From an uncultured Candidatus Saccharibacteria bacterium (GTDB lineage Bacteria > Patescibacteriota > Minisyncoccia > Phycocordibacterales > UBA9973): a stretch of 64,000 bases of DNA. Below, one piece after another: positions 8,308 through 35,832 of this stretch (positions within the stretch are counted from its first letter, which is position 1; each line of letters begins with the position of its first letter). The stretch spans positions 35,184-99,183 of the forward strand of contig CAYTSO010000003.1 of the NCBI GenBank assembly GCA_964440545.1, written 5' to 3'. The notes under the pieces were generated by a model, which was given only the letters and a program-made list of their open reading frames with translations, ran no database searches and was not told the origin of the DNA. The position numbers were made by a program, and so were the translations under genes.

Positions 8308-8793
8308 ATGACCAAATTATTTTTAGCAAATCAAGACATTATTATAAAACTAGTTCTTTCAATGAGCTTGGGTATGGTTATCGGCATAGAGAGGTATATT
8401 GCTCATAAATCAGCCGGGATGCGCACTTATGCCCTCCTTTCCATGGGAGCGGCTCTTTTTGTGGTGCTTGGAAATGCTGTCATCAATTCATATATGAATC
8501 TTTCTTCAATTGGGATGAGTCCTCTTCAGATAATAGCGGCTGTTATTACCGGTATTGGGTTTCTTGGGGCTGGGGCAATGTTTAAAAACGAATCAACCTT
8601 GATTGGTCTTACCACCGCTACTGGACTTTGGGTTTCTGCTGGGATAGGAATGGCTGTTGGTTTTGGGTTTTATGCTCTTGCAATAATTACTACCATATTA
8701 ATTCTTTTCATCTTTGTTATTCTCTGGATTTTAGAGAAACGAATATTAGATAAAATTTCCGATAAGCGTCCGCCACAAAAAGAAAATTTATAA
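8308..8793 (+). CDS. MgtC/SapB family membrane protein
   Basis: GMVIGIERYIAHKSAGMRTYALLSMGAALF is the MgtC N-terminal signature. Four to five TM helices. Confidence 0.75.
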   Translation: MTKLFLANQDIIIKLVLSMSLGMVIGIERYIAHKSAGMRTYALLSMGAALFVVLGNAVINSYMNLSSIGMSPLQIIAAVITGIGFLGAGAMFKNESTLIGLTTATGLWVSAGIGMAVGFGFYALAIITTILILFIFVILWILEKRILDKISDKRPPQKENL

Positions 8794-17336: not shown

Positions 17337-17915
17337 ATGACAGACAAAGAAGAAACAAAAGAAGAAAATTCCGAATCTGAAATTTTAGAATTTGAATTCA
17401 ACGAAGACGGAGAAGAAGATTTAAAGAAAACTTTGAAAAAATTCAGAGCTGATTTGAAGGCGTGCAAAAAAGAGAAGGAAGAATATCTAACTGGCTGGCA
17501 AAAAGAACGAGCAGAATTTGCTAATTACAAAAAACAAGAGGAAGACCGCAAGTCCGTTTTTTTTGAGGCGGTAAGGGAACGTATACTTATGCGTTTTTTA
17601 TCTGTTTTGGATAATTTTGACATGGCCTTTGCTAATCGCGAAGCCTGGGAGAAGGTAGATGAAAATTGGAGAAAAGGAGTAGAGTATATTTACTCTCAGA
17701 TGAGTGCAATATTTGAAGAGTATAACATAAAGCCAGTTGGGGAAAACGGGGAGAATTTTGATCCAAATATTCACCAATCTATGGAAATGGTAGAAACAAA
17801 CAAAAAAGAGCTAGAACACAAAATCGCAAGCGTGATCCAAAAAGGATACAAACTTGGAGATAGGGTCATTCGTCCTGCCAGGGTGAATGTGTATGAATAT
17901 AAGGAAAGTAAATAA
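17337..17915 (+). CDS. grpE: nucleotide exchange factor GrpE
   Basis: Acidic N-terminus, a coiled-coil region and a C-terminal beta domain (KGYKLGDRVIRPARVNV). Confidence 0.85.
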   Translation: MTDKEETKEENSESEILEFEFNEDGEEDLKKTLKKFRADLKACKKEKEEYLTGWQKERAEFANYKKQEEDRKSVFFEAVRERILMRFLSVLDNFDMAFANREAWEKVDENWRKGVEYIYSQMSAIFEEYNIKPVGENGENFDPNIHQSMEMVETNKKELEHKIASVIQKGYKLGDRVIRPARVNVYEYKESK

Positions 17916-19076: not shown

Positions 19077-20987
19077 ATGTCAAAAATTATTGGTATCGAT
19101 TTGGGTACAACGAATTCTGCTTTTGCTGTAATTGAGGGTGGAGAACCAAAAATTTTAGAAAATTCAGAGGGAACTCGCACAACTCCGTCGGTTATCGCGC
19201 TAGCCAAGAACGGAGATCGTCTGGTGGGTACCTTGGCAAAACGTCAATCTGTTACTAATCCTAAAAATACAGTTTTCCAGATAAAAAGATTTATTGGTCA
19301 TAATTTTGATGAACCGGGAGTTCAGAAGGACATCAAGGCAGTACCTTTTGAAGTTAGAAAATCAGAGAATGGTGGAATTGACGTGAAGATGGGAGAAAAA
19401 TGGTATCGACCAGAAGAAATTTCCGCCATGCTTTTGCAAAAAATGAAAGCAGATGCCGAGTCTCGACTAGGAGAAAAAATTACCGAGGCAGTTATCACTG
19501 TTCCAGCTTACTTTAATGATGCGCAAAGAAAAGCTACTAAGGATGCAGGACAGATTGCAGGGCTAGAAGTAAAGCGAATTATTAACGAGCCAACTGCAGC
19601 TGCATTGGCATACGGTTTTAATAAAAAGAAGAATGAAAAAATAGTAGTTTATGATTTTGGTGGAGGAACATTTGATATTTCTGTGCTAGAGGTAGGAGAA
19701 GATGTAATTGAAGTAAAATCGACTGACGGAGATTCGCACTTGGGAGGTAAAGACATCGATCAAAAAATAATGAACTGGTTGGCGGACGGATTTCAGAAGG
19801 AGCACGGGGTTGATTTACGAAAGGATCCTTTGGCCAAACAACGCTTAGATGATGCGGCCGAGAAAGCAAAAATAGAGCTGTCTACAGCAGTAGAATCAGA
19901 AGTAAATATTCCATTTATTACTTCTTCGGATGCTGGACCTCTTCACTTGGTACGTACAATGAAGCGTGCTGATCTAGAAGAACTTTGCAAAGAGTTTATT
20001 GACCGAGCAATGGAAATTAGCAAAAGAGCCATGGAAGCCTCTCCTTTCAAGATGGGCGACATTAATGAAATAATTTTAGTTGGTGGACAAACTCGAATGC
20101 CAATGATCCAAAAAAGAGTAGAAGAATTTTTTGGCAAAAAACCGCACATGGGAGTAAATCCGGACGAAGTTGTTGCACTGGGTGCTGCTGTGCAGGCAGG
20201 GGTTCTACAAGGGGATGTGAAAGATGTTCTCTTGCTTGATGTTATTCCATTGTCTCTTGGTATTGAAACTCTCGGAGGCGTGGCCACTAAATTGATTGAT
20301 CGAAATACCACTATTCCTAGTTCTAAATCGCAGGTATTTTCTACAGCAGCGGACAATCAAACTTCCGTTGAAATTCATATTGTGCAGGGAGAGCGTCCGA
20401 TGGCTTCTGATAATAAATCGCTGGGAAGATTTATTCTGGACGGAGTTCCGCCTGCACCTCGTGGCATGCCACAGATTGAGGTCTCCTTTGATGTGGACGT
20501 AAATGGAATTTTAAGTGTTACAGCAAAAGATAAAGCTTCTGGCAAAACTCAGTCAATTAGAATTGAGGCAAGTTCTGGACTAAAAGAAGAAGAAATTAAG
20601 AAAATGCAAGCCGATGCTGAAATCCACGCAGAAGAAGACAAAAAGAAAAAAGAAAATGTAGAGATAAAAAATACTGCAGAAATGCTCGTTTATACAGCGG
20701 AAAAAGCGCTAAAAGACAATGAAGCAAAAATTCCAGCTGATGTTAAAGAGGGTGTAAACGCGAAAATAACCGCCTTGCGCAGTGTAAAGGATGGCTCTGA
20801 CGGAGAAGCAATTAAAAAAGCCACCGAAGAGCTTTCTGCTGAAATGTCTAAAATTGGTGAAGCAATGGCAAAAGCTGGAGCAACACCGGGTGCAAATCCT
20901 ACCCCAGAGGAACAACCCTCAGAAGTCCATGATGCTGAATTTAAGGAAAAAAAGGAAGGAGAAGAAGGTGAATCACCAAAAGCATAG
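19077..20987 (+). CDS. dnaK: molecular chaperone DnaK (Hsp70)
   Basis: [30 protein letters not shown] signatures. 636 aa. Confidence 0.97.
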
Positions 20988-21002
20988 TTTATAAGACCCC
21001 AA

Positions 21003-21025
21003 AAGCCCCGCAAGGGGCTTTTTAG
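21003..21025 (+). terminator. intrinsic terminator after dnaK
   Basis: AGCCCC-GCAA-GGGGCT hairpin followed by TTTTT. Confidence 0.5.
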
Positions 21026-21056
21026 TTTAAGGAATGTTTGATATAATCTGTCTATC

Positions 21057-23135
21057 ATGGATCTTCCAGAAATACCTAGAAATAAAGATATAACTTATCT
21101 TGGGCTTACAACTTTTCGCGACAAAAATCAGCTTTTTGGTATTAAGCGCAAGGATCGACGTCAACACGTTTACGTGCTTGGAAAATCCGGAACCGGTAAA
21201 TCCGTACTCCTTTTCAATATGATTACCCAAAACATTCAAAACGGGGAAGGGGTTTGCGTGGTTGATCCTCATGGCGAACTTGTAGAAAGTGTCCTTTCTT
21301 CAGTGCCGGAAAATAGAGTAAAAGATGTTATTTATTTTAATCCAGCCGACACCGATTATCATGTTGGTTTTAATGTTTTAGAACTCATTGATCCTCAATA
21401 CAAACATCTAGTGGCTTCAGGTTTGATGGCAATTTTTACTAAAATTTGGGCGAATGCCTGGAGCGCTCGTATGGAATATATTTTAAATAATTGTATCTTG
21501 GCTTTACTGGATACCCCTGGAACCACCTTGCTTGGTATTCCGCGTATGTTGGTGGACAAAGATTATCGCCAGAAAATTATTACCAACTTGAAAGATCCTG
21601 TTATTAAAGCATTCTGGGTGCATGAATATGAGGCCTGGCAAGAAAAATTCCGTAATGAAGCCATTGCACCAATTCAAAACAAAGTTGGACAATTTCTCTC
21701 TACCTCAATCATTCGAAATGTCGTTGGTCAAACCAAGAGCACAATCAATATTTTTGACATAATGAATGAGGGAAAGATATTTTTGGTAAATGTCTCCAAG
21801 GGGCGCATTGGCGAAGACAATTCCGCGCTTTTGGGTGGAATGATTATTACTAAGATTCAATTGGCAGCAATGGAGCGCGTGCGTATTCCAGAAGAAGAAC
21901 GAAAAGATTTTTATTTATATGTAGACGAATTTCAAAATTTCGTAACAGATGCTTTTGCTGGCATTTTGTCTGAAGCTCGAAAATATCGACTAAATCTTAC
22001 TGTCGCGCATCAATATACCGCCCAGCTTGTTTCTGATAAAAGCTCAGCTGTGCGAGATGCGGTTTTCGGGAACGTTGGAACAATGATCGTTTTTCGGGTT
22101 GGCTCTGATGATGCCGCTTTTCTGGAACAAGAATTTGATCCTGAATTTACTCCGTCGGATATAGTGAATTTGCCGAACTATAAGATTTACCTGAAGCTAA
22201 TGATAGACGGGGTGACCTCCAGGCCATTTTCAGCGAAAACCTTGCCCCCGATGACTAAGGCAGATAATAAAAAAGTAGCTGAAGAAGTTATTAGATCCTC
22301 TAGGGATCTTTATTGCAGGCCTAAAGATGTAATTGAAAGGGAAATCAATGAATGGAGCGGTATGTCCTTAGGAGATGACAATATTTCTTCTTTTGGCGGG
22401 ATGGAAAAATTCAAAATTATTTGTTCGCTCTGCGGGCTGGAAAAGACAGTTCCGTTCAAGCCAGAGCCAGGCAGATCAGTTTATTGTAGGGAATGCATTG
22501 CAAAAATAAAATCAGGTGAAGTTAAGATAAAGAAGGGAGGGGATGATCAGTTTAAATACGATGAGTCTACTTTTTTCAAGCCCTTGGCTGATTTGGGTAT
22601 TGAGTTTGACCAGAAGAGAGTTGAAAAAAATAGAGAAATAAATAAAGGGAAAAAAATAATACAAGACACTAAACCGATTGCTCCAACGAGCAGGCCTGGC
22701 GTGTTTGGAGCCATTAAAAAAGCATTTATTAAAAAAGAGAAGCCAAAAGTAGTTTCTGGGGACGGAAAAAATTTAGCATTAAAGGAAGCTCTGAATAAGG
22801 TGATTCCAAAAGAAACAATCTCAGAGCCATCACCGAAACATGCTTCGCTAGATATTCTTAAAAAACAGACAGAAGGGGTAGACAAAAATATTTCAACAAA
22901 TAAGCCTATACATACTGGTGGGGATCGTGCCGCTAGTTTAGAGGAAATGAATAAATTGAAAGATTTGATTTCTACTGCTGTCGCGGGGCAAGCAGAAAAA
23001 ACCCCCAACCAGAGCAAGTTCGGTACGGGGCAGGCAGAGAAGAAAGAAATTCCGCCTTCTGCGCCGACTCAAAAAGAGACAGGTAAACCCAAGGAAGTGC
23101 CAGAGGATGTTCTAAAAAAGATTTTAGAAGGGTGA
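21057..23135 (+). CDS. soluble TraG/VirD4/TraD-like (type IV coupling-protein family) P-loop ATPase with C-terminal zinc ribbon and K/E-rich tail (paralog 1)
   Basis: Walker A VLGKSGTGKS, VVDPHGEL, Walker [10 protein letters not shown], and a TraG-D_C-like SEARKYRLNLTVAHQYTAQL...FGNVGTMIVFRVGSDDA segment. No N-terminal TM helices. C-terminal CSLCG...CRECI zinc ribbon. Confidence 0.65.
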   Translation: MDLPEIPRNKDITYLGLTTFRDKNQLFGIKRKDRRQHVYVLGKSGTGKSVLLFNMITQNIQNGEGVCVVDPHGELVESVLSSVPENRVKDVIYFNPADTDYHVGFNVLELIDPQYKHLVASGLMAIFTKIWANAWSARMEYILNNCILALLDTPGTTLLGIPRMLVDKDYRQKIITNLKDPVIKAFWVHEYEAWQEKFRNEAIAPIQNKVGQFLSTSIIRNVVGQTKSTINIFDIMNEGKIFLVNVSKGRIGEDNSALLGGMIITKIQLAAMERVRIPEEERKDFYLYVDEFQNFVTDAFAGILSEARKYRLNLTVAHQYTAQLVSDKSSAVRDAVFGNVGTMIVFRVGSDDAAFLEQEFDPEFTPSDIVNLPNYKIYLKLMIDGVTSRPFSAKTLPPMTKADNKKVAEEVIRSSRDLYCRPKDVIEREINEWSGMSLGDDNISSFGGMEKFKIICSLCGLEKTVPFKPEPGRSVYCRECIAKIKSGEVKIKKGGDDQFKYDESTFFKPLADLGIEFDQKRVEKNREINKGKKIIQDTKPIAPTSRPGVFGAIKKAFIKKEKPKVVSGDGKNLALKEALNKVIPKETISEPSPKHASLDILKKQTEGVDKNISTNKPIHTGGDRAASLEEMNKLKDLISTAVAGQAEKTPNQSKFGTGQAEKKEIPPSAPTQKETGKPKEVPEDVLKKILEG

Positions 23136-23178
23136 ATCCGGAAATAGATTTTGAGATAGATCAGGAAATTGTAAAAAT

Positions 23179-24921
23179 ATGGAAACCAGAACATGTCAAA
23201 ATTGCAAAAGTGAATTTGTGATAGAGCCGGAGGATTTTAATTTTTATGAAAAGATTAAAGTTCCACCGCCAACTTTTTGTCCGGAATGCCGAACGATACG
23301 CAGATTGTGTTTTCGGAATGAGATGTCTTTGTTTAAAAGACCTTGTAATTTTCATGGTCATAAGGAAATTTTAATCTCCGCTTTTCATCCAGATGAAAAA
23401 TTAGTGGTTTATGATTTAAAAAGTTGGTGGGGGGATGGATGGAACCCATTAGATTTTGGCCGTGAATATGATTTTTCAAAATCCTTTTTTGCTCAATGGA
23501 GGGACTTTAGGGATAGTTTTCCTTTACAGGCTCTTTCAAATTCTAATGCGGTAAATAGTGATTATTGTAACGTAGCGGATGATAGCAAAAATTGTTACTT
23601 GATTTCTGGGTCAGAATCCTGCGAACAGACAATGTATTCTAATAGAATAATTAAGGTAAAAGACTCATTAGACTTGTATATAGTTAATCGCTCGGAGCTT
23701 TGCTATGATGATGTTTATTGCTTTGATTGCTACCGTGTTCTTTATTCTATAAATTGTAAAAATTGCGTTGATTCTTATTTTTTATATGATTGCGTGAATT
23801 GCGTAAATTGTTTTGGTTGTAGTAATTTAAGAAACAAATCATATTGTCTCTGGAATCAGCAGTTGACCCAAAAAGAATATAAAGAAAAGATCAAGGGATT
23901 AAACCTAAACAGCAGACAGGCAATTTTAAATTTTAAAAAGGAGTTTAATAAATTATACATTAATTCTATTCATCGTTTTGCTAATCAGGTTAAAACAATT
24001 AATTCAACCGGGAACAATTTAATTGGTGCAAAGGATTGCAAATACTGTTTTGACCTAGATGGTCAAATTGAAAACTCAAAAAATGTTCATTGGGGAGGGT
24101 TAAGCATAAAAGATGTTTATGATGGTGGTCCGGGGATTGGAAATACCGAGCTTGCGTATGAAATGTTTGACACCGGACTCGGTAGTCATCGTAGTCTGTG
24201 CACAAGCGTGGTATATGGTTCGAGTGATGTAGAGTATTCGTTCAATTGTTATAATTCTTCGAATCTTTTTGCTTGTTTTGGGTTGAGAAGTAAAAAATAT
24301 TGTATTTTTAATAAACAATATTCTAAAGAGGAATATGAAAGGATGGTTAATAAAATTAAGGACCAAATGAATGAAATTCCTTATATAGACAAAAACAATC
24401 GAACATATAGATATGGCGAATTTTTTCCAATTGAGTTATCTCCGTTTGCCTATAATGAGACAGTGGCGCAGGATTACTTTCCAATAACGAAAGAAATTGC
24501 TGAAAAAATGGGTTATAAATGGAGAGATAAAATAAAAAATGAATACAACGTCACTTTGAATTCAAAGAACATACCAGATAACCTTAACGAAACAAATGCT
24601 TCAATCTTAAAAGAAGTGATTGAGTGTGCGAATAATGGAAAAGACAACGGTAGGTGTTTGGGGGTATTTAGGATTTTAGAGAACGAGTTAAATTTATACA
24701 AAAGAATTGGTGTCCCTGTACCAAATTTATGTTTTGCTTGTCGCCATGCCGAACGGTTAAGTAAGCGAACCTCTCTTAAGCTCTGGCGTCGTCAGTGTAT
24801 GTGTGAAAAAGAGGGGCATGGTCACAAGGGAAGGTGTCAAGTAGAATTTGAAACCAGCTACGCCCCAGATCTTCCAGAAATAGTTTATTGTGAAAAGTGT
24901 TATCAGAAGGAAGTATATTAG
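23179..24921 (+). CDS. cysteine-rich multi-zinc-ribbon protein, unrecognised family (paralog 1)
   Basis: 580 aa. N-terminal C-x2-C..(20)..C-x2-C ribbon (CQNCKSEF..FCPECR). Central arrays of C-x2-C/NC-x2-C repeats with two copies of a C.GLR.K.YC..N.Q...EEY unit. C-terminal CFACRH...RQCMCEKEGHGHKGRC...YCEKCY. Not assignable to a family from the sequence. Confidence 0.65.
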   Translation: METRTCQNCKSEFVIEPEDFNFYEKIKVPPPTFCPECRTIRRLCFRNEMSLFKRPCNFHGHKEILISAFHPDEKLVVYDLKSWWGDGWNPLDFGREYDFSKSFFAQWRDFRDSFPLQALSNSNAVNSDYCNVADDSKNCYLISGSESCEQTMYSNRIIKVKDSLDLYIVNRSELCYDDVYCFDCYRVLYSINCKNCVDSYFLYDCVNCVNCFGCSNLRNKSYCLWNQQLTQKEYKEKIKGLNLNSRQAILNFKKEFNKLYINSIHRFANQVKTINSTGNNLIGAKDCKYCFDLDGQIENSKNVHWGGLSIKDVYDGGPGIGNTELAYEMFDTGLGSHRSLCTSVVYGSSDVEYSFNCYNSSNLFACFGLRSKKYCIFNKQYSKEEYERMVNKIKDQMNEIPYIDKNNRTYRYGEFFPIELSPFAYNETVAQDYFPITKEIAEKMGYKWRDKIKNEYNVTLNSKNIPDNLNETNASILKEVIECANNGKDNGRCLGVFRILENELNLYKRIGVPVPNLCFACRHAERLSKRTSLKLWRRQCMCEKEGHGHKGRCQVEFETSYAPDLPEIVYCEKCYQKEVY

Positions 24922-25613
24922 ATATTATTTACAGCTCGGTAGGTAGCGACGATGGCGGCAGTTTCGCCACGGAGAGTTAGATTTCCCAGGGAGGCGACGG
25001 TATAACTGGAATTTTTAGCGAACTCAATTTCTTTTTCCGTGAAGCCACCCTCGGGGCCAACAAAAATATTAGCTTTTTTTGCTTTCTTGTCTGGTGAGTA
25101 TTTTTTTCCATTTAAATCAAAGATGATTTTTTCATCTTCCATACTTCCATTAGCTAATGCATCTTTGAAATTTAAAATCGGGGATAATTCTGGAACAGTA
25201 TTTCTCCCGCATTGTTCGCTTGCCTCTAAAATTATTTTTTTCAAACGTTTTTCATTCAACCCAGTTTTTACAGTTCTCTCGGTGATAATCGGTGTTATCG
25301 ATGAGACCCCAACCTCTACTGCTTTTTGTACAGCTAGTTCAAAATTTTCTTTTTTTAGAATTGCCAAATATAAATTTACTGCTTTTTGCGCGTCTTGTTT
25401 TTGGCTGATTTTTTCAATTTTGCAGATGATTTCATTTTTTGAGGCAGAAAATATGCTTGCTTCCGCCTCGACACCCCTGCCATTTGAAAGGATAATTTTT
25501 TCGCCAATTTTAAGCCTTAAAACAGCTTTTATTTGCCTGATCGTTTCAGGATTTAAAATTTTTACTTCCTCTTTCAATAAATCATATTCGCCGATAAATC
25601 TATGTAATTTCAT
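24918..25613 (-). CDS. rsmE: 16S rRNA (uracil1498-N3)-methyltransferase RsmE
   Basis: PUA-like N-terminus (RLKIGEKIILSNGRG) and SPOUT C-terminus with IFVGPEGGFTEKEIE. Commonly linked to dnaJ. Confidence 0.8.
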   Translation of the reverse strand: MKLHRFIGEYDLLKEEVKILNPETIRQIKAVLRLKIGEKIILSNGRGVEAEASIFSASKNEIICKIEKISQKQDAQKAVNLYLAILKKENFELAVQKAVEVGVSSITPIITERTVKTGLNEKRLKKIILEASEQCGRNTVPELSPILNFKDALANGSMEDEKIIFDLNGKKYSPDKKAKKANIFVGPEGGFTEKEIEFAKNSSYTVASLGNLTLRGETAAIVATYRAVNNI

Positions 25614-25654
25614 GCTTAATATGATATACTAGAAAGGCAAATCATCAAAATTTT

Positions 25655-27160
25655 ATGTCTAAGCCGAATCGAGTGCAAATAATAAAATATGCTCCACCTC
25701 CGCCAGAATTGCCTGTGTATGGAAAAGTAAAGCCGGAAGAGGTATCCTTTTTCGGACGTACAAATTACGTGGCTTCCTTGGAAGAAAAAAAATTTATTTT
25801 CGGAATCAAGCGAGTTGATCGTCGTAGGCATCTTTATATAATCGGAAAATCAGGGGTTGGAAAAACTAAACTACTAGAACTGCTCTTGCGTCAAGATATC
25901 ACTTATAATCACGGCTTATGCTTGATAGACCCACACGGAGACGTGATAGATGCAATGCTTGATTATATCCCCAAGGAAAGAGCAGAAGACGTTTGCATAA
26001 TTGATCCTTCAGACGTAAATTTTCCAGCTTCCTTTAATCCATTGGCAAACGTGGATCCAATGTTTAAGTTTCAATTAACCCAAGGATTGATTGAGGTATT
26101 CCAAAAGCAATTCGGGGCGAACTGGACACCTCGTCTTGAGCACGTTTTTCGTTTTACTTGTTTAGCTCTTTTGGATTATCCACATGCCACGATGCGGGGA
26201 ATGATTTCAATGTTAACGGATAGAAATTATAGACAAAAAGTTGTGGAATATATTACAGACGACATGGTTAAAAGATTCTTCGCTATTGAATTCGCGGATT
26301 GGTCAGAAAAATTTGATACCGATGCCATCATTCCATTGGTAAATAAACTGGGTCAATTCCTTTCGGATCCATTACTTCGAAATATTTTTGGACAAAAAGA
26401 AAATAAAATTGATATGAGCAAGCTGATGAATGAAGGAAAAATCATCCTTATTAATCTTTCTAAGGGTCGTCTGGGTGAAGAGAACTCTTCCTTTCTCGGT
26501 TCCATGTTTTTAACAAAAATAAAACAAGCTGGAATGGAGCGAGCCGCTATCCCAGAAAAAGATCGAGTAGATTTTTACCTTTACGTGGATGAGTTTCAAA
26601 ACGTAGTGACTCAAACTTTTGAAAATATTTTGTCAGAAGCTAGAAAGTATGGATTGAATTTAACTATTGCTCATCAATATGTCGGCCAAATAATTACCAA
26701 GGTTCATCAGGCAGTGTTGGGTAATTGCGGAAGTATTATCACCTTCAGGGTAGGTGGGGAGGATGCAGTAAAAATGAAACCAGAATTTGCTCCTATCTTC
26801 GACGTGAAGGATATGATAAATCTTGCAGTTGGAGAAATTTATGTAAAAATGACAATAGATGGAGAATCTTATGATCCATTTTCTGCGGAAACGCTCAGGG
26901 TGCTTCCCCCTACACATTCTTCTTGTAGAGAAGAAATTATCGAAGCTTCACGCAGGAAATACTCAATATCCAAAGATTCGGCGGCAAAACTTATCGCCGA
27001 GGAAGAAGCCTCAATTATTCGAAGTGCCGAGGAAAAAGCTATTATTGAAGGAAAAAAGAAAGGAAAGGCTAAATCCAGTGAAACTGGAACGCCCGGCGCT
27101 TCTGAGGAAACGCTTAGGGAAGAAGAAAAAACTTCACAAGAAGCTGAACCTATGATATAA
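25655..27160 (+). CDS. soluble TraG/VirD4/TraD-like P-loop ATPase (paralog 2, no zinc ribbon, acidic tail)
   Basis: Same architecture as 21057..23135: [47 protein letters not shown]...[16 protein letters not shown]. Roughly 45-50% identical to paralog 1 by eye. Confidence 0.65.
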
Positions 27161-27168
27161 CCCCATAT

Positions 27169-28275
27169 ATGAAAAAGGATTACTATGAAATTTTAGGAGT
27201 AAAAAAAGACGCGTCTAAAGAGGAAATCAAAAAAGCCTTTTATAAAATGGCGCACAAATATCATCCCGACAAAGGGGGCGGAAACGAGGCAAAATTCAAA
27301 GAAGTAAATGAAGCTTATCAAGTATTGTCTAGCGACGAAAAGCGTTCAAAATATGATCAATTTGGATCTGGCTTCGAAAACATGGGAGCTCAAGGGGGAT
27401 ATGGCAGGGGAGGCTTTGATGGCTTTGATTTTTCTGGCTTTTCCACCAGAGGCGGACAAGCGAATGGAGGAATGGAATTTGACTTTGGTAATCTAAATGA
27501 TATTTTTAGCGATTTTTTTGGAGGCGGAATGGGTGGAGGAAGACAACAGGCAAGACGAGGCAGGGATATTTCTACTGAAATCCAAGTTTCTTTTGCCGAT
27601 GCAGTTTTTGGCACAACTAGAAAAATTTTAATCACTAAGACTTCTAGGTGTTTAACCTGTGATGGTTCTGGGGCGAAGGCTGGTACAGGTATGGAAACTT
27701 GTAAAAAGTGTAATGGGCAAGGAAAAATTCGCGAACAAAAAAGAACTATTTTTGGAATTATTGCGAATACAAAAACCTGCGAGACCTGTCTGGGTACAGG
27801 AGAGGTGCCAAAAGAAATCTGCGATAAGTGCAAGGGTAAGGGTATTTTGCGTCGAGAAGAAGAGGTGCCTATTGTTATTCCAGCTGGAATTCGCGATGGT
27901 GAAATGGTTCGAATGGCCGGTTACGGAGAAGCAGTTTCCAAAGGAACGACAGGGGATTTATATATAAAAATAAATGTGACACAGCATCCTGTATTTAAGC
28001 GTGCTGGCAATGATTTGGTAATGAATTTAGACCTGAAGCTCACCGAAGCTCTTTTGGGGGCAAAATACACGATTCAAACCCTAGACGGAGAAATTGAAGT
28101 AAAAATTCCAGAAGGTGTCTCTATAAATGAAATTCTTCGCGTGCGGGGTAAGGGTGTTCCAGTGTCAAAAAGCAAGCGCGGTGATCTTCTCATAAAACTA
28201 AACATAAAACTTCCATCAAAACTTTCCCGCAAATCTCGTGAAATTATAGAGGAATTAAAGAAAGAGGGAATTTAG
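27169..28275 (+). CDS. dnaJ: chaperone DnaJ
   Basis: J domain (DYYEILGV...HPDK), G/F-rich region, four CxxCxGxG zinc-finger repeats and a C-terminal domain. Confidence 0.95.
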
Positions 28276-30029
28276 TGATGAAAGCACAAACTAAAAATTG
28301 TCAAAATTGCAAAAAAGACTTCGTCATTGAGACGGAGGATTTTAATTTCTATGAAAAAATCAAAGTTCCTCCACCGACTTGGTGTCCAGAATGCAGAATG
28401 ACAAGGCGATTTGCCTGGAGAAATGAAATTAATTTGTATAAAAGAAAATCTAGTCTATCCGGAGAAGAAATTATTAGCCAATATTCGAAAGATGTTGTTT
28501 TTCCAGTTTTTTCTGTAAAAGAGTACTATTCTAGAGAATGGGATATTCCTTTTGTGGATTATTCATTTGATAAAGGTTTTTTTGAGCAATTTTTTGCACT
28601 TCAACAAATAACGCCACATTGCGCGCTTTTAACTGACTTGCAATCAATGGAAAATGGTAGTATTTATCAGAATTCAGCAAGCCGAAACAAGAATTGCTAT
28701 ATGGTTAGCGCTTCAGGAGACAACGAAGATTCTCTGTATGGAAACAATCTAGACTATTCAAAAAACTCAATTGATTGCTTTTGGTGTAGGAGAACGAATT
28801 ATTCCTATGAGTCAACCGATTCGGTGGATTGCAATATGATCTTTTTTTCCGAGGAGTGTAAGCAGTGTGTTGATTGTTGGTTTTGTTTCGAATGCCGAAA
28901 TTGCGTAAACTGTTTTGGCTGTGCGGAGCTTAGAAACAAATCCTACTGTTTTTTCAATGAACAGCTTTCCCAGGAAGATTATAGTAAAAAAATTCAGGAT
29001 TTTTTTGAGAATCTGACAAGAGAAAAAATCGGTGAGATAAAAGATAAATTTAAGAAATTTAGTAATACTTTTCCTAGAAAATATGCCCATGTTGATTCAA
29101 ATAGTAATTATACTTCCTCTGGGGATTATATAATTAATTCAAAAAACGTTGTTAGAGGTTTTTTTATTCATGATAGTGAAAATGTTCGTTATTGCTCAAA
29201 AATAATTAAAGGCAGTGATTGCTGGGACACTAGTGATTGGGGAGATCCGATTGAGCTTTGCTACGAGAGTATAACAATAGGCAAGGGTGCTAATAAAATA
29301 TTTTTTTCTAATAACTGCTGGCCAGAATGTAGAGAAATACAGTATTGTGATTCTTGTTCAAGCTCTCACCACTTATTTGGTTGTATTGGTCTAAAAAATA
29401 AATCCTACTGCATCCTTAATAAGCAGTACGCTAAAGAAGAATACGAAGAACTAGTGCCAAAAATCATTCAGCATATGAACGATATGCCTCATATAGATAG
29501 TAAGGGTAGGGTATATAAATATGGAGAATTTTTCCCCGTAGAGCTTTCACCCTTTTTTTATAATGAAACAATCGCACAAGATTATTTTTCACTTTCTAAA
29601 AACCAGGCCCTTTTTTGTGGTTTTGGCTGGAAGGAAGAGGAAGAAAAAAACTACACGATAGACATTAAAAAGGGGCAAATACCTACAATTATTGATCAGG
29701 TCAATGAAGATATAATAAATAAGGTTTTAGAATGTGAACACGAAGGAAATTGCAACGAAAAGTGTACGAAGGCTTTTAGAATAGTAGAAGCAGAATTTCG
29801 ATTTTATAAAAAAATGAATTTACCTTTACCACATTTGTGCCCTAACTGTAGACACTACCAAAGACTGAAACAACGTAATCCATTAAAGCTTTGGCACCGA
29901 CAATGTATGTGTGAAAAAGAAGAGCACGGACATAGGGGTCGTTGCCCAATAGAATTTGAGACTTCTTATGCGCCCGAACGACCGGAGATTGTTTATTGTG
30001 AAAAGTGCTATCAGAAGGAAGTATATTAA
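28275..30029 (+). CDS. cysteine-rich multi-zinc-ribbon protein, unrecognised family (paralog 2)
   Basis: 584 aa. N- and C-termini nearly identical to paralog 1 (CQNCKKDF..WCPECR and ...RQCMCEKEEHGHRGRC...YCEKCYQKEVY). GTG/ATG start overlaps the dnaJ stop (TAGTGATG). Confidence 0.65.
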   Translation: MMKAQTKNCQNCKKDFVIETEDFNFYEKIKVPPPTWCPECRMTRRFAWRNEINLYKRKSSLSGEEIISQYSKDVVFPVFSVKEYYSREWDIPFVDYSFDKGFFEQFFALQQITPHCALLTDLQSMENGSIYQNSASRNKNCYMVSASGDNEDSLYGNNLDYSKNSIDCFWCRRTNYSYESTDSVDCNMIFFSEECKQCVDCWFCFECRNCVNCFGCAELRNKSYCFFNEQLSQEDYSKKIQDFFENLTREKIGEIKDKFKKFSNTFPRKYAHVDSNSNYTSSGDYIINSKNVVRGFFIHDSENVRYCSKIIKGSDCWDTSDWGDPIELCYESITIGKGANKIFFSNNCWPECREIQYCDSCSSSHHLFGCIGLKNKSYCILNKQYAKEEYEELVPKIIQHMNDMPHIDSKGRVYKYGEFFPVELSPFFYNETIAQDYFSLSKNQALFCGFGWKEEEEKNYTIDIKKGQIPTIIDQVNEDIINKVLECEHEGNCNEKCTKAFRIVEAEFRFYKKMNLPLPHLCPNCRHYQRLKQRNPLKLWHRQCMCEKEEHGHRGRCPIEFETSYAPERPEIVYCEKCYQKEVY

Positions 30030-30032
30030 TCT

Positions 30033-30623
30033 ATGTTTCCAGAACAAATTATTATTGTTGGAGTTTTGATAAATCTGCTCTGTTCTCTTTGGTATATCAA
30101 AAATATTTTAAGAGGGGATACTAGGCCGAATCCGGTTTCTTGGTTTATTTGGTCCTTGGCTCCATTTATTGGAGTATTTTTGCAATTAAAGGCTGGGGCC
30201 ACTTGGTCAGTGATGGGAGTATTCATGGCCGGTTTTGCCCCACTTCTAGTAGTAATTTTTTCCTTATTTAAAAAAAATGCCTTTTGGAAAATACAATCTT
30301 TTGATATTTTCTGTGGGCTTTTTTCTGTACTTGCTTTAGTTATTTATATAATAACAAGTAACCTATGGATTTCCATTCTTTTTGCTATTACCAGTGATTT
30401 TCTTGCTTACATTCCAACCTTTGTAAAATCATGGAAGAACCCAGAAAGTGAAACAAGTTCTGTATACTTGGGAGGAATAATTAACAACATCATCGCGATG
30501 CTGATTATTAAAAATTGGGCATTTGCCGTTTACTCTTTTCCGTTATATCTAGTGTTAGTGAATTTAGCCGAGGTGGCTGTGATTTACCGTAAAAAGTTTT
30601 TGAGAATAAAAATTATTTCTTAA
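30033..30623 (+). CDS. polytopic membrane protein, unknown function
   Basis: 196 aa with about six hydrophobic helices. No motif recognised. Confidence 0.45.
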   Translation: MFPEQIIIVGVLINLLCSLWYIKNILRGDTRPNPVSWFIWSLAPFIGVFLQLKAGATWSVMGVFMAGFAPLLVVIFSLFKKNAFWKIQSFDIFCGLFSVLALVIYIITSNLWISILFAITSDFLAYIPTFVKSWKNPESETSSVYLGGIINNIIAMLIIKNWAFAVYSFPLYLVLVNLAEVAVIYRKKFLRIKIIS

Positions 30624-31500
30624 ATTTTTTCTGAAACTTATTGGCAATAATTGTATAGCATAATTGGGCAGCGTTATATTCAGTAAGAACAGAGTCCTTT
30701 AATGGAGAGACCTCTACAATATCCGCACCGATTAAATTGAATTTTTTAGCTGCTTTTTCAATTAAATCAGTTCCATAATACCAGGAAAGTCCTCCTGATA
30801 CTGGGGTGCCTGTGCCAGGCATATAAGCAGGATCAAAACCATCAACATCAATAGTGACATAGACATATTTTGTTTTGATTGATTTTAATATTTTTTCTAC
30901 TGGAATTATTGTTTTACCCCACTCAAATACTTTTATATTGTTTTTAGGGTCACTAAAATATTCATATTCATCTTTCGAATAAGTGCGTATGCCAACCTGT
31001 ATGATTTTATAACCCAATTTGCTTGCATGCCGCATGACGGTTGAATGTGCTAAATTTGATGGTTTCTTGCTATAATCACTATCGTCTTTTCGTAGATCAC
31101 AATGAGCGTCTATTTGCAAAATGGTAACGTCCGCCGGATTATATTTTTTAGCGATTGCCTGGAAAGCTCCCACAGACACAGAATGTTCTCCGCCCAAAAG
31201 AAGAATAAATTTATTATTCTTTATGAGTTCTTGGTAAGTATTTTTTATTTTTTGTAAAACCTGAGGAGGGGAGAGTCTTTGTAGGTTCTGTAGATTTTGA
31301 TGAGCAATTTTTACAAAATTATTTACTTCAATCTTGAATTTTCTGTCAAAAAATTCTATTTGGGTATCCAAGCACTCGATAATTTTTTTGGGACCATTAG
31401 CGGTTCCCTTATGAAAAGAAGCAGTTTTTTCGTATCCAGCTGACACTAGTACCACGTCCGCCTTGTCTATTTTTTTCTCATTAATAATTGTTTTAATCAT
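30613..31500 (-). CDS. ureohydrolase (agmatinase/arginase family)
   Basis: GGEHS, DAHCD, DVDGFDP and PGTGTPVSGGL metal-binding motifs of the arginase fold. Confidence 0.8.
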   Translation of the reverse strand: MIKTIINEKKIDKADVVLVSAGYEKTASFHKGTANGPKKIIECLDTQIEFFDRKFKIEVNNFVKIAHQNLQNLQRLSPPQVLQKIKNTYQELIKNNKFILLLGGEHSVSVGAFQAIAKKYNPADVTILQIDAHCDLRKDDSDYSKKPSNLAHSTVMRHASKLGYKIIQVGIRTYSKDEYEYFSDPKNNIKVFEWGKTIIPVEKILKSIKTKYVYVTIDVDGFDPAYMPGTGTPVSGGLSWYYGTDLIEKAAKKFNLIGADIVEVSPLKDSVLTEYNAAQLCYTIIANKFQKKFKK

Positions 31501-34316: not shown

Positions 34317-34410
34317 TGTGTTTGCATTTTGCATGTTTTTGTATAGTATAAAATTTGGTGGACAAAAATTGCCCTTTGACATATGTGCAAACCCCAGAAA
34401 GGAGTTGACC

Positions 34411-35832
34411 ATGCCAAATCTAATGCTTCCGGGGAACCCCCGGTACCAACCGAAGGAACTTCAAGCGTTCTTCGGCTACGACAGATTGTTTGAGGCTGTC
34501 GCTAGTGTCGAGATCGCGACCATGCAAACCTTGGCCGAGATCGGTATCATCCCTGCGGCGGACATCACCGTGCTTACTTCGGTGATCAAAGAAGAACTTT
34601 TTGCTATCTCGACGAGCGAAGTTGACGAGCTTGAGCGGAGAGTAACCAAGCACGACATCCGCGCTTGGGTGCGAATTGCCCAGGGCAAAATGGAGCCCGG
34701 GCTTCGTCGGTGGGTCCACGTGCCGCTGACGAGCTACGACGCACTCGACACTGCTCGTGCGGTGCAGTTCGTGCAAGCTCACAACAATGTGGTGAAGAGA
34801 TTCACAAACAAAGTGATCAGTCACTTTGTGGATCAGGTCTACCGTTTTGCTGACCAACCGCAGATTGGCCGAACACACGGCCAGCACGCCCTTCCTATCA
34901 CGGTCGGATTCTGGTTCGCAACAATTTTGAACCGGATTCTCTCCAACATCCAAGCGGCCAACGCTGCTGCGGAAAAACTGGTCGGGAAGATCTCAGGAGC
35001 CGTGGGCGTGTATAACGCTCAGGTTGGTCTTGGTATTTTGGCTCGTTGCGGAAGCAAAACCTTCGAGGAGCGTGTGCTCGAGAAGCTCGGCCTTAAGCCC
35101 GCGCCGATCAGCACGCAGATTCTCCCTCCGGAGCCACTCGCGGACTACTTGTTTGCTTGTGTTAAGCTCTCTGCTACGTTCGGTCAGTTCGGACTCGATG
35201 GACGGCATCTTATGCGTACCGAGATTGCCGAACTCGGGGAACCTTTCGAGTCGGGTCAGGTTGGTTCTTCGACCATGGCCCACAAACGAAACCCTATCAA
35301 CTTTGAAAACTTGGAGGGAACCTGGAAGAAGAACAAGGCTGAGTTCTACAAGGTGCTCGAGTGCATGACGAGCGAGCACCAGCGGGACTTGGTTGGTAGT
35401 TCAATCACTCGCGATTTCCCGACGATCGTCGTGAACGTCGTCAACCAGCTGAATACTCTGCTTCGAGAAGCGGGAGGCAAACCGTTTATCTCTCGCATCT
35501 CGGTCGACAAGGCTGCTTGTGAGCGGAACCTCAAAGCTCAGGGCGATGCTATTCTTGCAGAGCCGATTTACATTGCTCTTCAAATGGCTGGTTATGAAGG
35601 CGATGCTCATGAGCTCGTGAACCATGTGGCTTTGCCGTACGCGAAGAAACACAACATGTTGTTGCTTGCGGCGACGCGCCAAGTGCTTTCGGATTGCAAC
35701 AGCATCGTTTGGAAAAACATTCCGAGTGACACTGTTCAGATGCTTGAGGATTCCGAGCGCTACACCGGCAACGCGGCAGAAAAGGCGTACGAAATCGCCA
35801 AAGCCGCCGAAGCGTATCTCAAGACGAAGTAG
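34411..35832 (+). CDS. purB: adenylosuccinate lyase (class II fumarate-lyase family), high-GC
   Basis: GSSTMAHKRNPINFEN lyase signature with PurB-type NP(I/V)(D/N)FEN. AAAGGAG RBS 7 nt before the ATG at 34411. GC content is far above the flanks. The track ORF start at 34318 is an artefactual extension. Confidence 0.85.
   Translation: MPNLMLPGNPRYQPKELQAFFGYDRLFEAVASVEIATMQTLAEIGIIPAADITVLTSVIKEELFAISTSEVDELERRVTKHDIRAWVRIAQGKMEPGLRRWVHVPLTSYDALDTARAVQFVQAHNNVVKRFTNKVISHFVDQVYRFADQPQIGRTHGQHALPITVGFWFATILNRILSNIQAANAAAEKLVGKISGAVGVYNAQVGLGILARCGSKTFEERVLEKLGLKPAPISTQILPPEPLADYLFACVKLSATFGQFGLDGRHLMRTEIAELGEPFESGQVGSSTMAHKRNPINFENLEGTWKKNKAEFYKVLECMTSEHQRDLVGSSITRDFPTIVVNVVNQLNTLLREAGGKPFISRISVDKAACERNLKAQGDAILAEPIYIALQMAGYEGDAHELVNHVALPYAKKHNMLLLAATRQVLSDCNSIVWKNIPSDTVQMLEDSERYTGNAAEKAYEIAKAAEAYLKTK

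What the first reader, a model, noticed from the sequence alone, without database searches (positions are those of the whole stretch)
28270..28280. dnaJ stop codon overlaps the start of Cys-rich paralog 2 (TAGTGATG)
The dnaJ TAG stop shares its G with a GTG, immediately followed by ATG, that opens the 584-aa Cys-rich ORF. This is a classic translational-coupling junction. It implies the Cys-rich protein is made stoichiometrically with Hsp40 and is functionally tied to the chaperone cycle rather than being a passenger insertion. Upstream, ATPase2 ends 8 nt before the dnaJ ATG.
Basis: seen in the sequence. Interest (0 to 1): 0.5.

Follow-up and report, generated by a model that had tools for sequence, protein, structure and literature searches.

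The report
Accessory Cys-rich gene inserted after dnaJ
The tight dnaJ/Cys-rich gene junction is real but ordinary for this compact genome, and close relatives lack the Cys-rich gene at this site, so it is a variable insertion into a conserved chaperone operon, not a fixed partner of DnaJ.

Summary
The sequence is as described. The dnaJ stop TAG is at 28273-28275, a GTG at 28275-28277 and an ATG at 28278-28280. ATPase2 ends 8 nt before dnaJ. The real start is most likely the ATG, 2 nt after the stop.

Tight junctions are the norm here: 25 of 43 same-strand junctions are 15 nt or less apart. The SD-like AAAGAGGGA simply encodes the conserved DnaJ C-terminus KKEGI*. Co-transcription and termination-reinitiation are plausible.

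The functional inference fails. Syntenic relatives carry the backbone grpE-dnaK-ATPase1-ATPase2-dnaJ-membrane gene, with no Cys-rich gene after dnaJ (L164-L166, L084, L089, L099). Where a Cys-rich gene does follow dnaJ, the spacer is 29-110 nt and a different paralog occupies the site.

The Cys-rich family is huge (at least 2,250 clusters at 50% identity), seen only in Patescibacteria records and unannotated. It lies mostly in tandem arrays. Only 4 of 170 scorable copies follow dnaJ.

The conserved and more interesting feature is a pair of soluble VirD4-like ATPases embedded between dnaK and dnaJ.

The parts
27169..28275 (+). dnaJ (368 aa), TAG stop at 28273-28275
   Evidence: TIGR02349 392 bits against cut-off 377; Pfam DnaJ, DnaJ_CXXCXGXG and DnaJ_C. 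The C-terminus KKEGI* is conserved in relatives.
28260..28269 (+). SD-like GAAAGAGGGA, 8-10 nt upstream of the ATG
   Evidence: Read. It is the coding sequence for the conserved DnaJ tail (E)LKKEG, and it is present in relatives whose next gene is not a Cys-rich gene. Only 8 of 63 genes in the window have a core SD.
28273..28280 (+). Junction TAGTGATG: stop TAG, overlapping GTG, then ATG
   Evidence: The N-terminal alignment favours the ATG at 28278. The RNA fold of 28225-28330 is no more stable than shuffles, z = -0.19.
28278..30029 (+). Cys-rich paralog 2 (583 aa, 38 Cys, no TM segment): zinc-finger module, Cys-rich beta-solenoid-like middle, homologous zinc-finger module, terminal zinc ribbon
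   Evidence: No Pfam, NCBIfam or PADLOC family. More than 7,900 homologs, those that carry a source name all Patescibacteria. AF2 pLDDT 75.5. Only weak beta-solenoid fold hits. N- and C-terminal modules are 39% identical, E = 6e-13.
28857..28922 (+). Run of eight Cys spaced CxxC (residues 194-215 of paralog 2)
   Evidence: Read from the translation. C209, C212 and C215 are invariant or nearly invariant in the family alignment.
30033..30623 (+). 196-aa polytopic membrane protein, 3 nt after the Cys-rich stop. It is the backbone gene that directly follows dnaJ in relatives.
   Evidence: Hydrophobic segments. No Pfam family. dnaJ-to-membrane-gene gaps of 1-5 nt in L164-L166. Also directly after dnaJ in L084, L089 and L099.
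25655..27160 (+). ATPase2: soluble VirD4/TraD/HerA-like P-loop ATPase, ends 8 nt before dnaJ
   Evidence: Pfam TrwB_AAD_bind, DUF87 and TraG-D_C. No TM segment. The top 120 homolog clusters are 83-93% identical. It lies directly upstream of dnaJ in 12 of 12 close dnaJ-seeded loci.
23179..24921 (+). Cys-rich paralog 1 (580 aa), 44% identical to paralog 2
   Evidence: Absent between ATPase1 and ATPase2 in L164 and L166.
21057..23135 (+). ATPase1: VirD4/TraD-like ATPase with a C-terminal CxxC-x17-CxxC treble-clef finger and a disordered tail
   Evidence: Pfam TrwB_AAD_bind 48 bits and zf_Tbcl_2 45 bits; TIGR04272 47 bits. 44% identical to ATPase2.
19077..20987 (+). dnaK
   Evidence: Translation; the orthologous gene in L164 and L166 carries Pfam HSP70.
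17337..17915 (+). grpE
   Evidence: Translation; Pfam GrpE at the orthologous position in L164.
24918..25613 (-). rsmE-like 16S rRNA methyltransferase on the opposite strand, between Cys-rich 1 and ATPase2. Not part of the backbone.
   Evidence: Pfam Methyltrans_RNA and PUA_4. Absent from this position in L164 and L166.

Best explanation
The window holds a conserved chaperone operon of one Patescibacteria clade, whose named members are Nomurabacteria and Paceibacterota: grpE, (PaaX-like regulator, opposite strand), dnaK, ATPase1, ATPase2, dnaJ, a 196-aa membrane protein. Two members of a very large, fast-turning-over, uncharacterised Cys-rich family have been added to it. Paralog 1 (with rsmE) sits between the two ATPases. 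Paralog 2 sits exactly between the dnaJ stop and the membrane gene's ATG.

Shown: paralog 2 is an ORF-sized insertion with a 2-nt spacer upstream and a 3-nt spacer downstream.

Inferred: it is read from the operon transcript. Its translation most likely starts at ATG 28278, by ribosomes that terminate at the dnaJ TAG 2 nt upstream and re-initiate. The purine-rich stretch that encodes the DnaJ tail may help.

The tight junction reflects genome compaction and operon embedding, as at most junctions in this genome. It does not indicate a dedicated DnaJ partnership. What the Cys-rich protein itself does is not shown. From its sequence it is a cytoplasmic, metal-binding (probably zinc) protein with two homologous treble-clef-like modules flanking a Cys-ladder beta-solenoid. 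Its recurrent position after the orphan VirD4-like ATPases suggests that, if it has a dedicated partner, the partner is the ATPase and not DnaJ.
For: Junction and start: consensus M-x-x-ETK-x-C; public 583-aa product.

Ordinary spacing: 25 of 43 same-strand junctions are 15 nt or less apart.

No promoter or terminator signal at the junction, and no significant RNA structure.

Insertion polymorphism:
- ATPase2-seeded syntenic loci L164 and L166 have dnaK-ATPase1-ATPase2-dnaJ-membrane gene with no Cys-rich gene. L165 has Cys-rich genes after ATPase1 but the membrane gene directly after dnaJ.
- The junction sequences line up: window 'TAA tct ATG ttt cca gaa' against L165 'TAA tcc ATG ttc cct gaa'.
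- In the dnaJ-seeded loci with DnaJ at 65% identity or more, the gene after dnaJ is Cys-rich in 3, the membrane gene in 3 and another gene in 5. ATPase2 is upstream in 12 of 12.
- Where dnaJ is directly followed by a Cys-rich gene, the spacers are 29-110 nt.

Paralog turnover: the post-dnaJ Cys-rich proteins of L080 and L081 are 52% identical to paralog 2 although DnaJ is 80% identical. The one in L082 is 65% identical to paralog 1 instead.

Family-wide context (183 genes): the upstream neighbour is another Cys-rich gene in 76, an unrelated gene in 70, an ATPase in 19 and dnaJ in 4. Copies also lie between ftsW and murG and after scpB. The closest homologs of paralog 2 lie in unrelated contexts.
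Against: There is no expression data, so co-transcription and re-initiation are inferred. An internal promoter inside the dnaJ 3' end cannot be excluded by a consensus scan, especially in a lineage whose promoters are poorly known.

Cys-rich genes recur in the dnaK-dnaJ locus more often than a family of a few to about 20 copies per genome would by chance. A Cys-rich gene follows ATPase1 in 5 of 8 loci that were not selected for Cys-rich genes, and follows dnaJ in 3 of 14. Some functional or mechanistic link to this operon is therefore not excluded. It could be through the ATPases, or through an insertion hot spot.

Presence/absence across relatives could reflect repeated loss and not insertion.
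Confidence: 0.72

Rival explanations
1. The overlapping stop/start enforces 1:1 production of DnaJ and the Cys-rich protein, which is a dedicated component or co-chaperone of the DnaK/DnaJ cycle.
For: The junction is tight. An SD-like motif lies upstream. Cys-rich genes recur after dnaJ in L012, L020, L051, L063, L080, L081 and L082. A second paralog lies in the same operon after ATPase1.
Against: Syntenic relatives lack it. The junction is not conserved; spacers are 29-110 nt. Different paralogs occupy the site. Only 4 of 170 scorable family members follow dnaJ. The closest homologs sit beside unrelated genes. The SD-like motif is just the DnaJ tail codons. Tight junctions are generic in this genome.
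Confidence: 0.08
2. The Cys-rich proteins are substrates or partners of the orphan soluble VirD4-like ATPases, and the dnaK-ATPase-ATPase-dnaJ operon is the core of a protein-handling system specific to this group of Patescibacteria. The placement of paralog 2 in the operon is then meaningful, but through the ATPases and not through DnaJ.
For: The gene downstream of an ATPase is a Cys-rich gene or dnaJ in 27 of 32 cases (Cys-rich-seeded loci) and in 15 of 16 cases (dnaJ-seeded loci). A Cys-rich gene follows ATPase1 in L082, L084, L089, L099 and L165, none of which was selected for Cys-rich genes. ATPase1 carries a CxxC-x17-CxxC finger weakly similar to the Cys-rich C-terminal ribbon, E = 2e-4 in a pairwise comparison. 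The Cys-rich family has strongly conserved N- and C-termini and a variable middle. ATPase2 is more conserved than DnaJ. The literature notes 5,713 VirD4-like homologues in Patescibacteria, mostly away from virB4 and possibly exapted (PMC12102498).
Against: 70 of 170 scorable Cys-rich genes have an unrelated upstream neighbour, and many loci have no ATPase within 10 kb. L164 and L166 keep both ATPases with no adjacent Cys-rich gene. There is no biochemical evidence. Adjacency could reflect an insertion or duplication hot spot.
Confidence: 0.2
3. Paralog 2 is expressed independently, from a promoter inside the 3' end of dnaJ, and starts at the GTG or ATG without coupling.
For: This genome is SD-poor (8 of 63 genes) and seems to use -10 boxes placed 6-10 nt before ATGs (grpE, ATPase1, others), so promoters can lie inside upstream genes. 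A TGATATAAC motif lies inside the ATPase2 end, just before dnaJ.
Against: There is no -10-like element in the 40 nt before 28278. There is no promoter-like site on the + strand between 27506 and 28958.
Confidence: 0.08

Closest known systems
Tight or overlapping stop-start junctions in bacterial operons (termination-reinitiation coupling, e.g. the UGAUG junctions of E. coli trpE-trpD and trpB-trpA; from general knowledge)
   Same: The genes lie on the same strand. The stop and the next start are within 0-2 nt. A purine-rich stretch sits inside the upstream gene. There is no room for a promoter or terminator.
   Different: The start actually used is probably the ATG 2 nt after the stop, not the overlapping GTG. 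The junction is not conserved in relatives. The genome has few SD motifs. The downstream gene is a variable insertion and not a fixed subunit partner, so the stoichiometry argument that holds for trp subunits does not carry over.
Canonical grpE-dnaK-dnaJ heat-shock operon
   Same: grpE, dnaK and dnaJ are all present, co-oriented and in the canonical order. More distant relatives (DnaJ 57% identity or less) have the plain grpE-dnaK-dnaJ arrangement.
   Different: In this clade two soluble VirD4-like ATPase genes lie between dnaK and dnaJ, a small membrane protein follows dnaJ, and Cys-rich genes are added variably.
Orphan VirD4-like type IV coupling protein homologues of Patescibacteria (PMC12102498)
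   Same: ATPase1 and ATPase2 match TrwB_AAD_bind, T4SS-DNA_transf and TraG-D_C. They lie away from any virB4, as the paper reports for most of its 5,713 homologues.
   Different: They have no N-terminal membrane anchor. They score far below the NCBIfam TraD/VirD4 cut-offs. They are embedded in the chaperone operon, a context that the paper does not mention; its text has no occurrence of dnaK.
Beta-solenoid / left-handed beta-helix proteins (curli CsgA, LpxA/LpxD/GlmU-type hexapeptide-repeat proteins, bactofilin)
   Different: The hits are weak. Foldseek's best E-value is 0.07, there is no sequence match to any PDB chain, and the model confidence is lowest in this region. The Cys ladder and the flanking zinc-finger modules have no counterpart in those proteins.

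Membership tests
Translationally coupled stop-start junction | Same-strand ORFs whose stop and start overlap or lie within a few nt | tested here: met
   TAG 28273-28275, GTG 28275-28277, ATG 28278-28280.
Translationally coupled stop-start junction | The overlapping codon (GTG) is the start actually used | tested here: inconclusive
   The ATG gives exactly the family's consensus N-terminal length, M-x-x-ETK-x-C, and the public gene call is 583 aa. The GTG cannot be excluded from sequence alone.
Translationally coupled stop-start junction | No promoter or terminator between or just upstream of the junction | tested here: met
   No + strand promoter-like site between 27506 and 28958. The only terminator-like hit (28319-28337) lies inside conserved coding sequence, and the number of such hits equals the shuffle expectation. 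No -10-like element in the 40 nt upstream. These are consensus scans only.
Translationally coupled stop-start junction | Junction conserved in related genomes | tested here: not met
   The seven loci with a direct dnaJ-to-Cys-rich junction have spacers of 29-110 nt. Other relatives have no Cys-rich gene there.
Translationally coupled stop-start junction | Downstream translation depends on upstream translation | not testable with these tools
   Needs ribosome profiling or reporter fusions with a premature stop in dnaJ.
DnaK/DnaJ/GrpE chaperone system (Cys-rich protein as a dedicated component) | Co-occurrence with dnaJ in syntenic relatives | tested here: not met
   Among loci not selected for Cys-rich genes, a Cys-rich gene follows dnaJ in 3 of 14 (L080-L082). 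The other 11 have the membrane gene (6) or another gene (5).
DnaK/DnaJ/GrpE chaperone system (Cys-rich protein as a dedicated component) | Family-wide genomic association with dnaJ/dnaK | tested here: not met
   4 of 170 scorable family members have dnaJ as upstream neighbour; 76 have another Cys-rich gene and 70 an unrelated gene. Unrelated contexts are shown.
DnaK/DnaJ/GrpE chaperone system (Cys-rich protein as a dedicated component) | Orthologous, co-evolving copy at the post-dnaJ site | tested here: not met
   The post-dnaJ copies are 52% identical to paralog 2 while DnaJ is 80% identical. The L082 copy is closer to paralog 1, at 65%.
DnaJ (Hsp40), for the upstream gene | J domain, CxxCxGxG zinc centre and C-terminal domain; equivalog score | tested here: met
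   Pfam DnaJ, DnaJ_CXXCXGXG and DnaJ_C; TIGR02349 392.3 bits against cut-off 377.2.
Type IV coupling protein VirD4/TraD (for ATPase1 and ATPase2) | TrwB/TraD-type P-loop NTPase domain | tested here: met
   PF10412 scores 48.1 and 29.4 bits against cut-off 20.5; PF12696 scores 25.9 and 26.8 against 22.
Type IV coupling protein VirD4/TraD (for ATPase1 and ATPase2) | N-terminal transmembrane anchor | tested here: not met
   No 19-residue window reaches Kyte-Doolittle 1.6 in either protein; the maxima are 1.13 and 1.06.
Type IV coupling protein VirD4/TraD (for ATPase1 and ATPase2) | Curated equivalog or subfamily score (NCBIfam TraD/VirD4 models) | tested here: not met
   Best is TIGR03743 at 51.8 and 52.8 bits against cut-off 366.
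Type IV coupling protein VirD4/TraD (for ATPase1 and ATPase2) | Encoded near virB4, a relaxase or other T4SS genes | tested here: not met
   The genes annotated from 16.5 to 37.9 kb are ribosomal, chaperone, tRNA-synthetase and replication genes. The rest of the window was not annotated.
zf_Tbcl / CxxC-x17-CxxC treble-clef domain (for the Cys-rich termini) | Pfam or NCBIfam score above the curated cut-off | tested here: not met
   Paralog 1 N-terminus: PF13451 scores 17.7 bits against cut-off 24. Paralog 2 has no hit. ATPase1 does pass: PF23477 45.4 against 27, and TIGR04272 47 against 36.

The most novel reading that the evidence does not exclude
The two highly conserved, soluble VirD4-like ATPases wedged between dnaK and dnaJ, together with the fast-diversifying arrays of Cys-rich zinc-finger/beta-solenoid proteins that tend to follow such ATPases, form a protein-handling or export system that has not been described. 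In it, Hsp70/Hsp40 and a coupling-protein-like hexameric ATPase process a hypervariable cargo family, possibly effectors of the episymbiotic lifestyle. The dnaJ/Cys-rich junction would then be one visible edge of that system.
Probability: 0.12. Interest if true: 0.75.

Novelty: new member of a known kind. Interest (0 to 1): 0.33.

Why it matters
The junction is a routine operon junction and does not justify calling the Cys-rich protein a chaperone component. Showing this prevents an over-interpretation.

The follow-up exposes two things that deserve their own study:
- A conserved dnaK-ATPase-ATPase-dnaJ-membrane protein operon. Here orphan VirD4-like ATPases are more conserved than DnaJ itself. 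The recent literature suspects these ATPases of being exapted in Patescibacteria, and this operon gives a concrete context for that idea.
- One of the largest unannotated protein families of these bacteria. It has at least 2,250 clusters at 50% identity, matches no Pfam model, and forms tandem arrays of up to 12 or more copies. It behaves as a rapidly turning-over accessory gene that inserts cleanly into housekeeping operons.

Tried and rejected
- Rfam on the whole window: no RNA family.
- ARAGORN: no tRNA.
- Looked for a structured RNA or hairpin at the junction. The fold is no better than shuffles, z = -0.19.
- Looked for a known defence system. PADLOC gave nothing for the Cys-rich proteins and only weak HerA/mad8-type hits for the ATPases.
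- Looked for a phage origin. There are no Cys-rich relatives in 2.9 million viral contigs and no close ATPase2 relatives there. PHROGs gave only a weak hit for paralog 2, but a strong hit of the ATPases to phrog_5156, of unknown function.
- Plasmid megablast of 27000-30700: no match.
- PDB sequence profile search: no hit.
- Fold searches gave only weak beta-solenoid resemblances. The afdb50 library was unavailable.
- Exact look-up of P0001's contig failed.
- Four literature searches for the Cys-rich family or for a dnaK/VirD4 link in CPR found nothing relevant.
- Tested for gene conversion between the two window paralogs. Third-position identity is unremarkable, 0.27-0.64 across the gene.
- Considered stop-codon read-through or a DnaJ/Cys-rich fusion. 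Rejected, because the ORFs are in different frames and the DnaJ stop position is conserved.
Full report
**1. Observation**

The sequence reads ...AAAGAAAGAGGGAATT TAG TG ATG AAA GCA....
- dnaJ runs from 27169 to 28275, with its TAG stop at 28273-28275.
- A GTG at 28275-28277 shares the G of the stop. An ATG follows at 28278-28280.
- The ORF then runs to 30029: 584 aa from the GTG, 583 aa from the ATG.
- ATPase2 ends at 27160, 8 nt before the dnaJ ATG.
- dnaJ is a bona fide DnaJ: TIGR02349 scores 392 bits against a cut-off of 377, with the J, CxxCxGxG and C-terminal domains.

**2. Is the junction special?**

It is not. A greedy gene set for the window has 43 same-strand junctions. Six overlap and 19 more are 1-15 nt apart.

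The SD-like GAAAGAGGGA at 28260-28269 is the coding sequence for the conserved DnaJ tail ...LKKEGI*. The same codons end dnaJ in relatives, whatever gene follows. Only 8 of 63 genes in the window have a core SD in the 20 nt before the start.

No promoter-like site lies on the + strand between 27506 and 28958. The single terminator-like hit at 28319-28337 lies in conserved coding sequence, in a scan whose total equals the shuffle expectation. The RNA fold of 28225-28330 is no more stable than shuffles, z = -0.19.

**3. Which start?**

An alignment of 24 family members shows a consensus N-terminus M-x-x-E-T-K-x-C-Q-N-C, with seven residues before the first invariant Cys. The ATG at 28278 reproduces this exactly (MKAQTKNC). 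The GTG adds one residue. The public protein for this gene is the 583-aa ATG product.

A start further downstream is excluded, because the next Met lies beyond the invariant C8/C11...C36/C39 finger. The likely junction is therefore stop, 2 nt, ATG, and not a true overlap. That is still compatible with termination-reinitiation.

**4. What the Cys-rich gene is**

- It matches no Pfam, NCBIfam or PADLOC model. The only trace is a sub-threshold zf_Tbcl hit at the N-terminus of paralog 1.
- It has 38 Cys in 583 residues and no hydrophobic segment.
- The family is very large. A word-indexed search saturated, with 7,993 of 8,000 scored candidates significant. Every hit that carries a source name is a hypothetical protein from Patescibacteria (Paceibacteria, Nomurabacteria, Minisyncoccia), and several come from one genome.
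- A full HMM scan of 1.84 billion representatives at 50% identity found 2,250 clusters at E <= 1e-30 and 5,265 at E <= 1e-3.
- The N-terminal ~60 residues and the C-terminal ~210 residues are conserved. The middle is variable.
- The N-terminal module and a C-terminal module are homologous to each other: 39% identity over 59 residues, E = 6e-13.
- Paralog 2 has a run of eight Cys spaced CxxC at residues 194-215.
- No PDB sequence matches.
- No relatives occur in 2.9 million viral contigs.

**5. Where the family sits in genomes**

In 79 loci seeded on the family from GTDB species representatives, I located 183 full-length copies. Thirteen lie at a contig edge, leaving 170 that can be scored. The immediate upstream same-strand neighbour is:
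- another Cys-rich gene in 76;
- an unrelated gene in 70;
- the VirD4-like ATPase in 19;
- dnaJ in 4;
- grpE in 1.

Arrays reach 12 copies in 21 kb (L004). Another locus cut from the same contig, L011, shows seven more. Copies also lie between ftsW and murG, inside the cell-wall cluster, and after scpB (L160). The closest homologs of paralog 2 (53-57% identical) lie next to a serine recombinase and an ABC transporter, next to an amino-acid kinase, or after a DUF2130 gene. Adjacency to dnaJ is therefore a rare context for this family.

**6. The decisive comparison**

*Loci seeded on DnaJ* (80 metagenome loci). They split cleanly.
- Relatives with DnaJ at 57% identity or less that show upstream genes have grpE and/or dnaK upstream of dnaJ, and none has an ATPase or a Cys-rich gene.
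- The 13 closest (65-81% identity) have ATPase2 directly upstream of dnaJ in 12 of the 12 with enough sequence.
- The gene after dnaJ varies among the 11 with enough downstream sequence. It is a Cys-rich gene in L080-L082 and the 196-aa membrane gene in L084, L089 and L099. In the other five it is another gene: the convergent arginase-family gene followed by cysS in L083 and L091, and different genes in L085, L086 and L090.

*Loci seeded on ATPase2 orthologs* (about 90% identical). L164 and L166 show the same backbone as the window gene for gene: rplM, rpsI, grpE, PaaX-like (opposite strand), dnaK, ATPase1 with its zinc finger, ATPase2, dnaJ, the ~196-aa membrane protein, arginase family, cysS, AI-2E permease, rplU, recR, dnaB. 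They have no Cys-rich gene at all. L165 has two Cys-rich genes after ATPase1, but dnaJ is followed directly by the membrane gene.

In these three loci the dnaJ stop and the membrane gene's ATG are 1, 3 and 5 nt apart. The window's 'TAA tct ATG ttt cca gaa' after paralog 2 matches L165's 'TAA tcc ATG ttc cct gaa' after dnaJ.

Paralog 2 is thus an ORF-sized addition placed exactly between dnaJ and its usual downstream neighbour. Paralog 1 (with rsmE) is likewise an addition between ATPase1 and ATPase2.

**7. No conserved junction, no orthology at the site**

In the seven loci where a Cys-rich gene directly follows dnaJ, the spacer is 29-110 nt and never an overlap. In an eighth, L075, another ORF lies between them. 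Five of the seven spacers carry a conserved element, TATCTCTAATTCGCGCGAATAG, with a perfect 12-bp palindrome. The window lacks this element.

The post-dnaJ Cys-rich proteins of L080 and L081 are only 52% identical to paralog 2, although their DnaJ is 80% identical. The one in L082 is 65% identical to paralog 1 and is not among the 25 best matches to paralog 2. The site is occupied by different paralogs in different genomes. That is turnover, not co-evolution with DnaJ.

**8. Interpretation**

Co-transcription with dnaJ and re-initiation at ATG 28278 are the most economical reading of the junction. Both are inferred and not shown.

The further inference, of stoichiometric production and a role in the chaperone cycle 'rather than a passenger insertion', is contradicted by sections 5 to 7.

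A link to this operon is still not excluded. A Cys-rich gene follows ATPase1 in 5 of 8 loci that were not selected for Cys-rich genes (L082, L084, L089, L099, L165). The gene downstream of an ATPase is a Cys-rich gene or dnaJ in 27 of 32 and in 15 of 16 cases. If the Cys-rich proteins have a dedicated partner, the orphan VirD4-like ATPase is the better candidate.

The ATPases:
- have no membrane anchor;
- score far below the NCBIfam TraD/VirD4 cut-offs;
- are not near T4SS genes;
- are extremely conserved. ATPase2 sits in a 24-member cluster at 90% identity, and its 120 best homolog clusters are 83-93% identical. DnaJ's best match is 81%.

A 2025 survey found 5,713 VirD4-like homologues in 2,918 Patescibacteria genomes. 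Only 148 were near virB4, and the authors could not rule out exaptation (PMC12102498). That paper does not mention dnaK.

**9. Verdict**

The junction is ordinary for this compact, SD-poor genome. The claimed functional implication is not supported.

The surrounding locus is more interesting than the junction. It holds a conserved chaperone operon with two embedded coupling-protein-like ATPases, and a huge unannotated Cys-rich family that inserts into housekeeping operons.

Noticed in passing
window 19077-30623; L164, L165, L166, L080-L091, L099: The operon dnaK - ATPase1 (with CxxC-x17-CxxC finger) - ATPase2 - dnaJ - 196-aa membrane protein is conserved in one Patescibacteria clade whose named members are Nomurabacteria and Paceibacterota. 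ATPase2 (83-93% identity across 120 clusters) is more conserved than DnaJ (81% or less). More distant relatives have plain grpE-dnaK-dnaJ.
   Followed up: partly
L004 and L011 (both cut from contig JALLOO010000001.1); L066, L062, L077, L078: Cys-rich genes form same-strand tandem arrays with spacers of 2-17 nt. L004 shows 12 copies in 21 kb, and L011, another locus cut from the same contig, shows 7 more.
   Followed up: partly
L160 10001-11752 and 737-6033: One Cys-rich gene sits between ftsW and murG, inside the cell-wall/division cluster, and three sit directly after scpB. The family inserts into several unrelated housekeeping operons, always co-oriented with them.
   Followed up: no
L012 2337-2348, L063 14546-14557, L080 9098-9109, L081 5818-5829, L082 9101-9112; also L023, L031, L065, L074: A conserved intergenic element, TATCTCTAATTCGCGCGAATAG, with the perfect palindrome ATTCGCGCGAAT, lies between dnaJ and the following Cys-rich gene in five loci. 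It also occurs just after Cys-rich genes in L023, L031 and L074, and once more in L065. It is absent from the window. It could be an operator or a cassette boundary.
   Followed up: partly
window 27150-27168; same position in L019, L020, L086, L087, L090 and others: The ATPase2 C-terminus ...EPMI* (cct atg ata taa) forms an extended -10-like motif (TGATATAAT in relatives, TGATATAAC in the window) ending 8-16 nt before the dnaJ ATG in about 10 of 21 loci. Either the protein tail or a leaderless-type dnaJ promoter is conserved.
   Followed up: no
window, gene starts at 8308, 10448, 17337, 21057, 33962 and 55134: The genome is SD-poor: 8 of 63 genes have GGAG, GAGG or AGGA in the 20 nt before the start. 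Several operon-first genes have TATAAT ending 6-10 nt before the ATG, which suggests leaderless or very short-leader mRNAs.
   Followed up: no
window 34318-35832 (+): A 504-aa Lyase_1 (adenylosuccinate-lyase-like) ORF with GC about 0.49, against a background of about 0.36, lies between rplU and recR. The syntenic loci L164 and L166 have rplU directly followed by recR, so this looks like a foreign insertion.
   Followed up: partly
window 22404-22505 (ATPase1 residues 450-483) and 29943-30026 (paralog 2 C-terminus): The treble-clef finger of ATPase1 and the terminal zinc ribbon of the Cys-rich proteins share a weak motif, x-[FY]-x-P-E-x4-VYC-x2-C (36% identity over 25 aa, pairwise E = 2e-4). This may hint at a shared interaction module.
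   Followed up: partly
window 21057-23135 and 25655-27160: Both ATPases match phage family phrog_5156, of unknown function, strongly (E = 1e-62 and 8e-52) over the C-terminal half of that 824-position profile.
   Followed up: no
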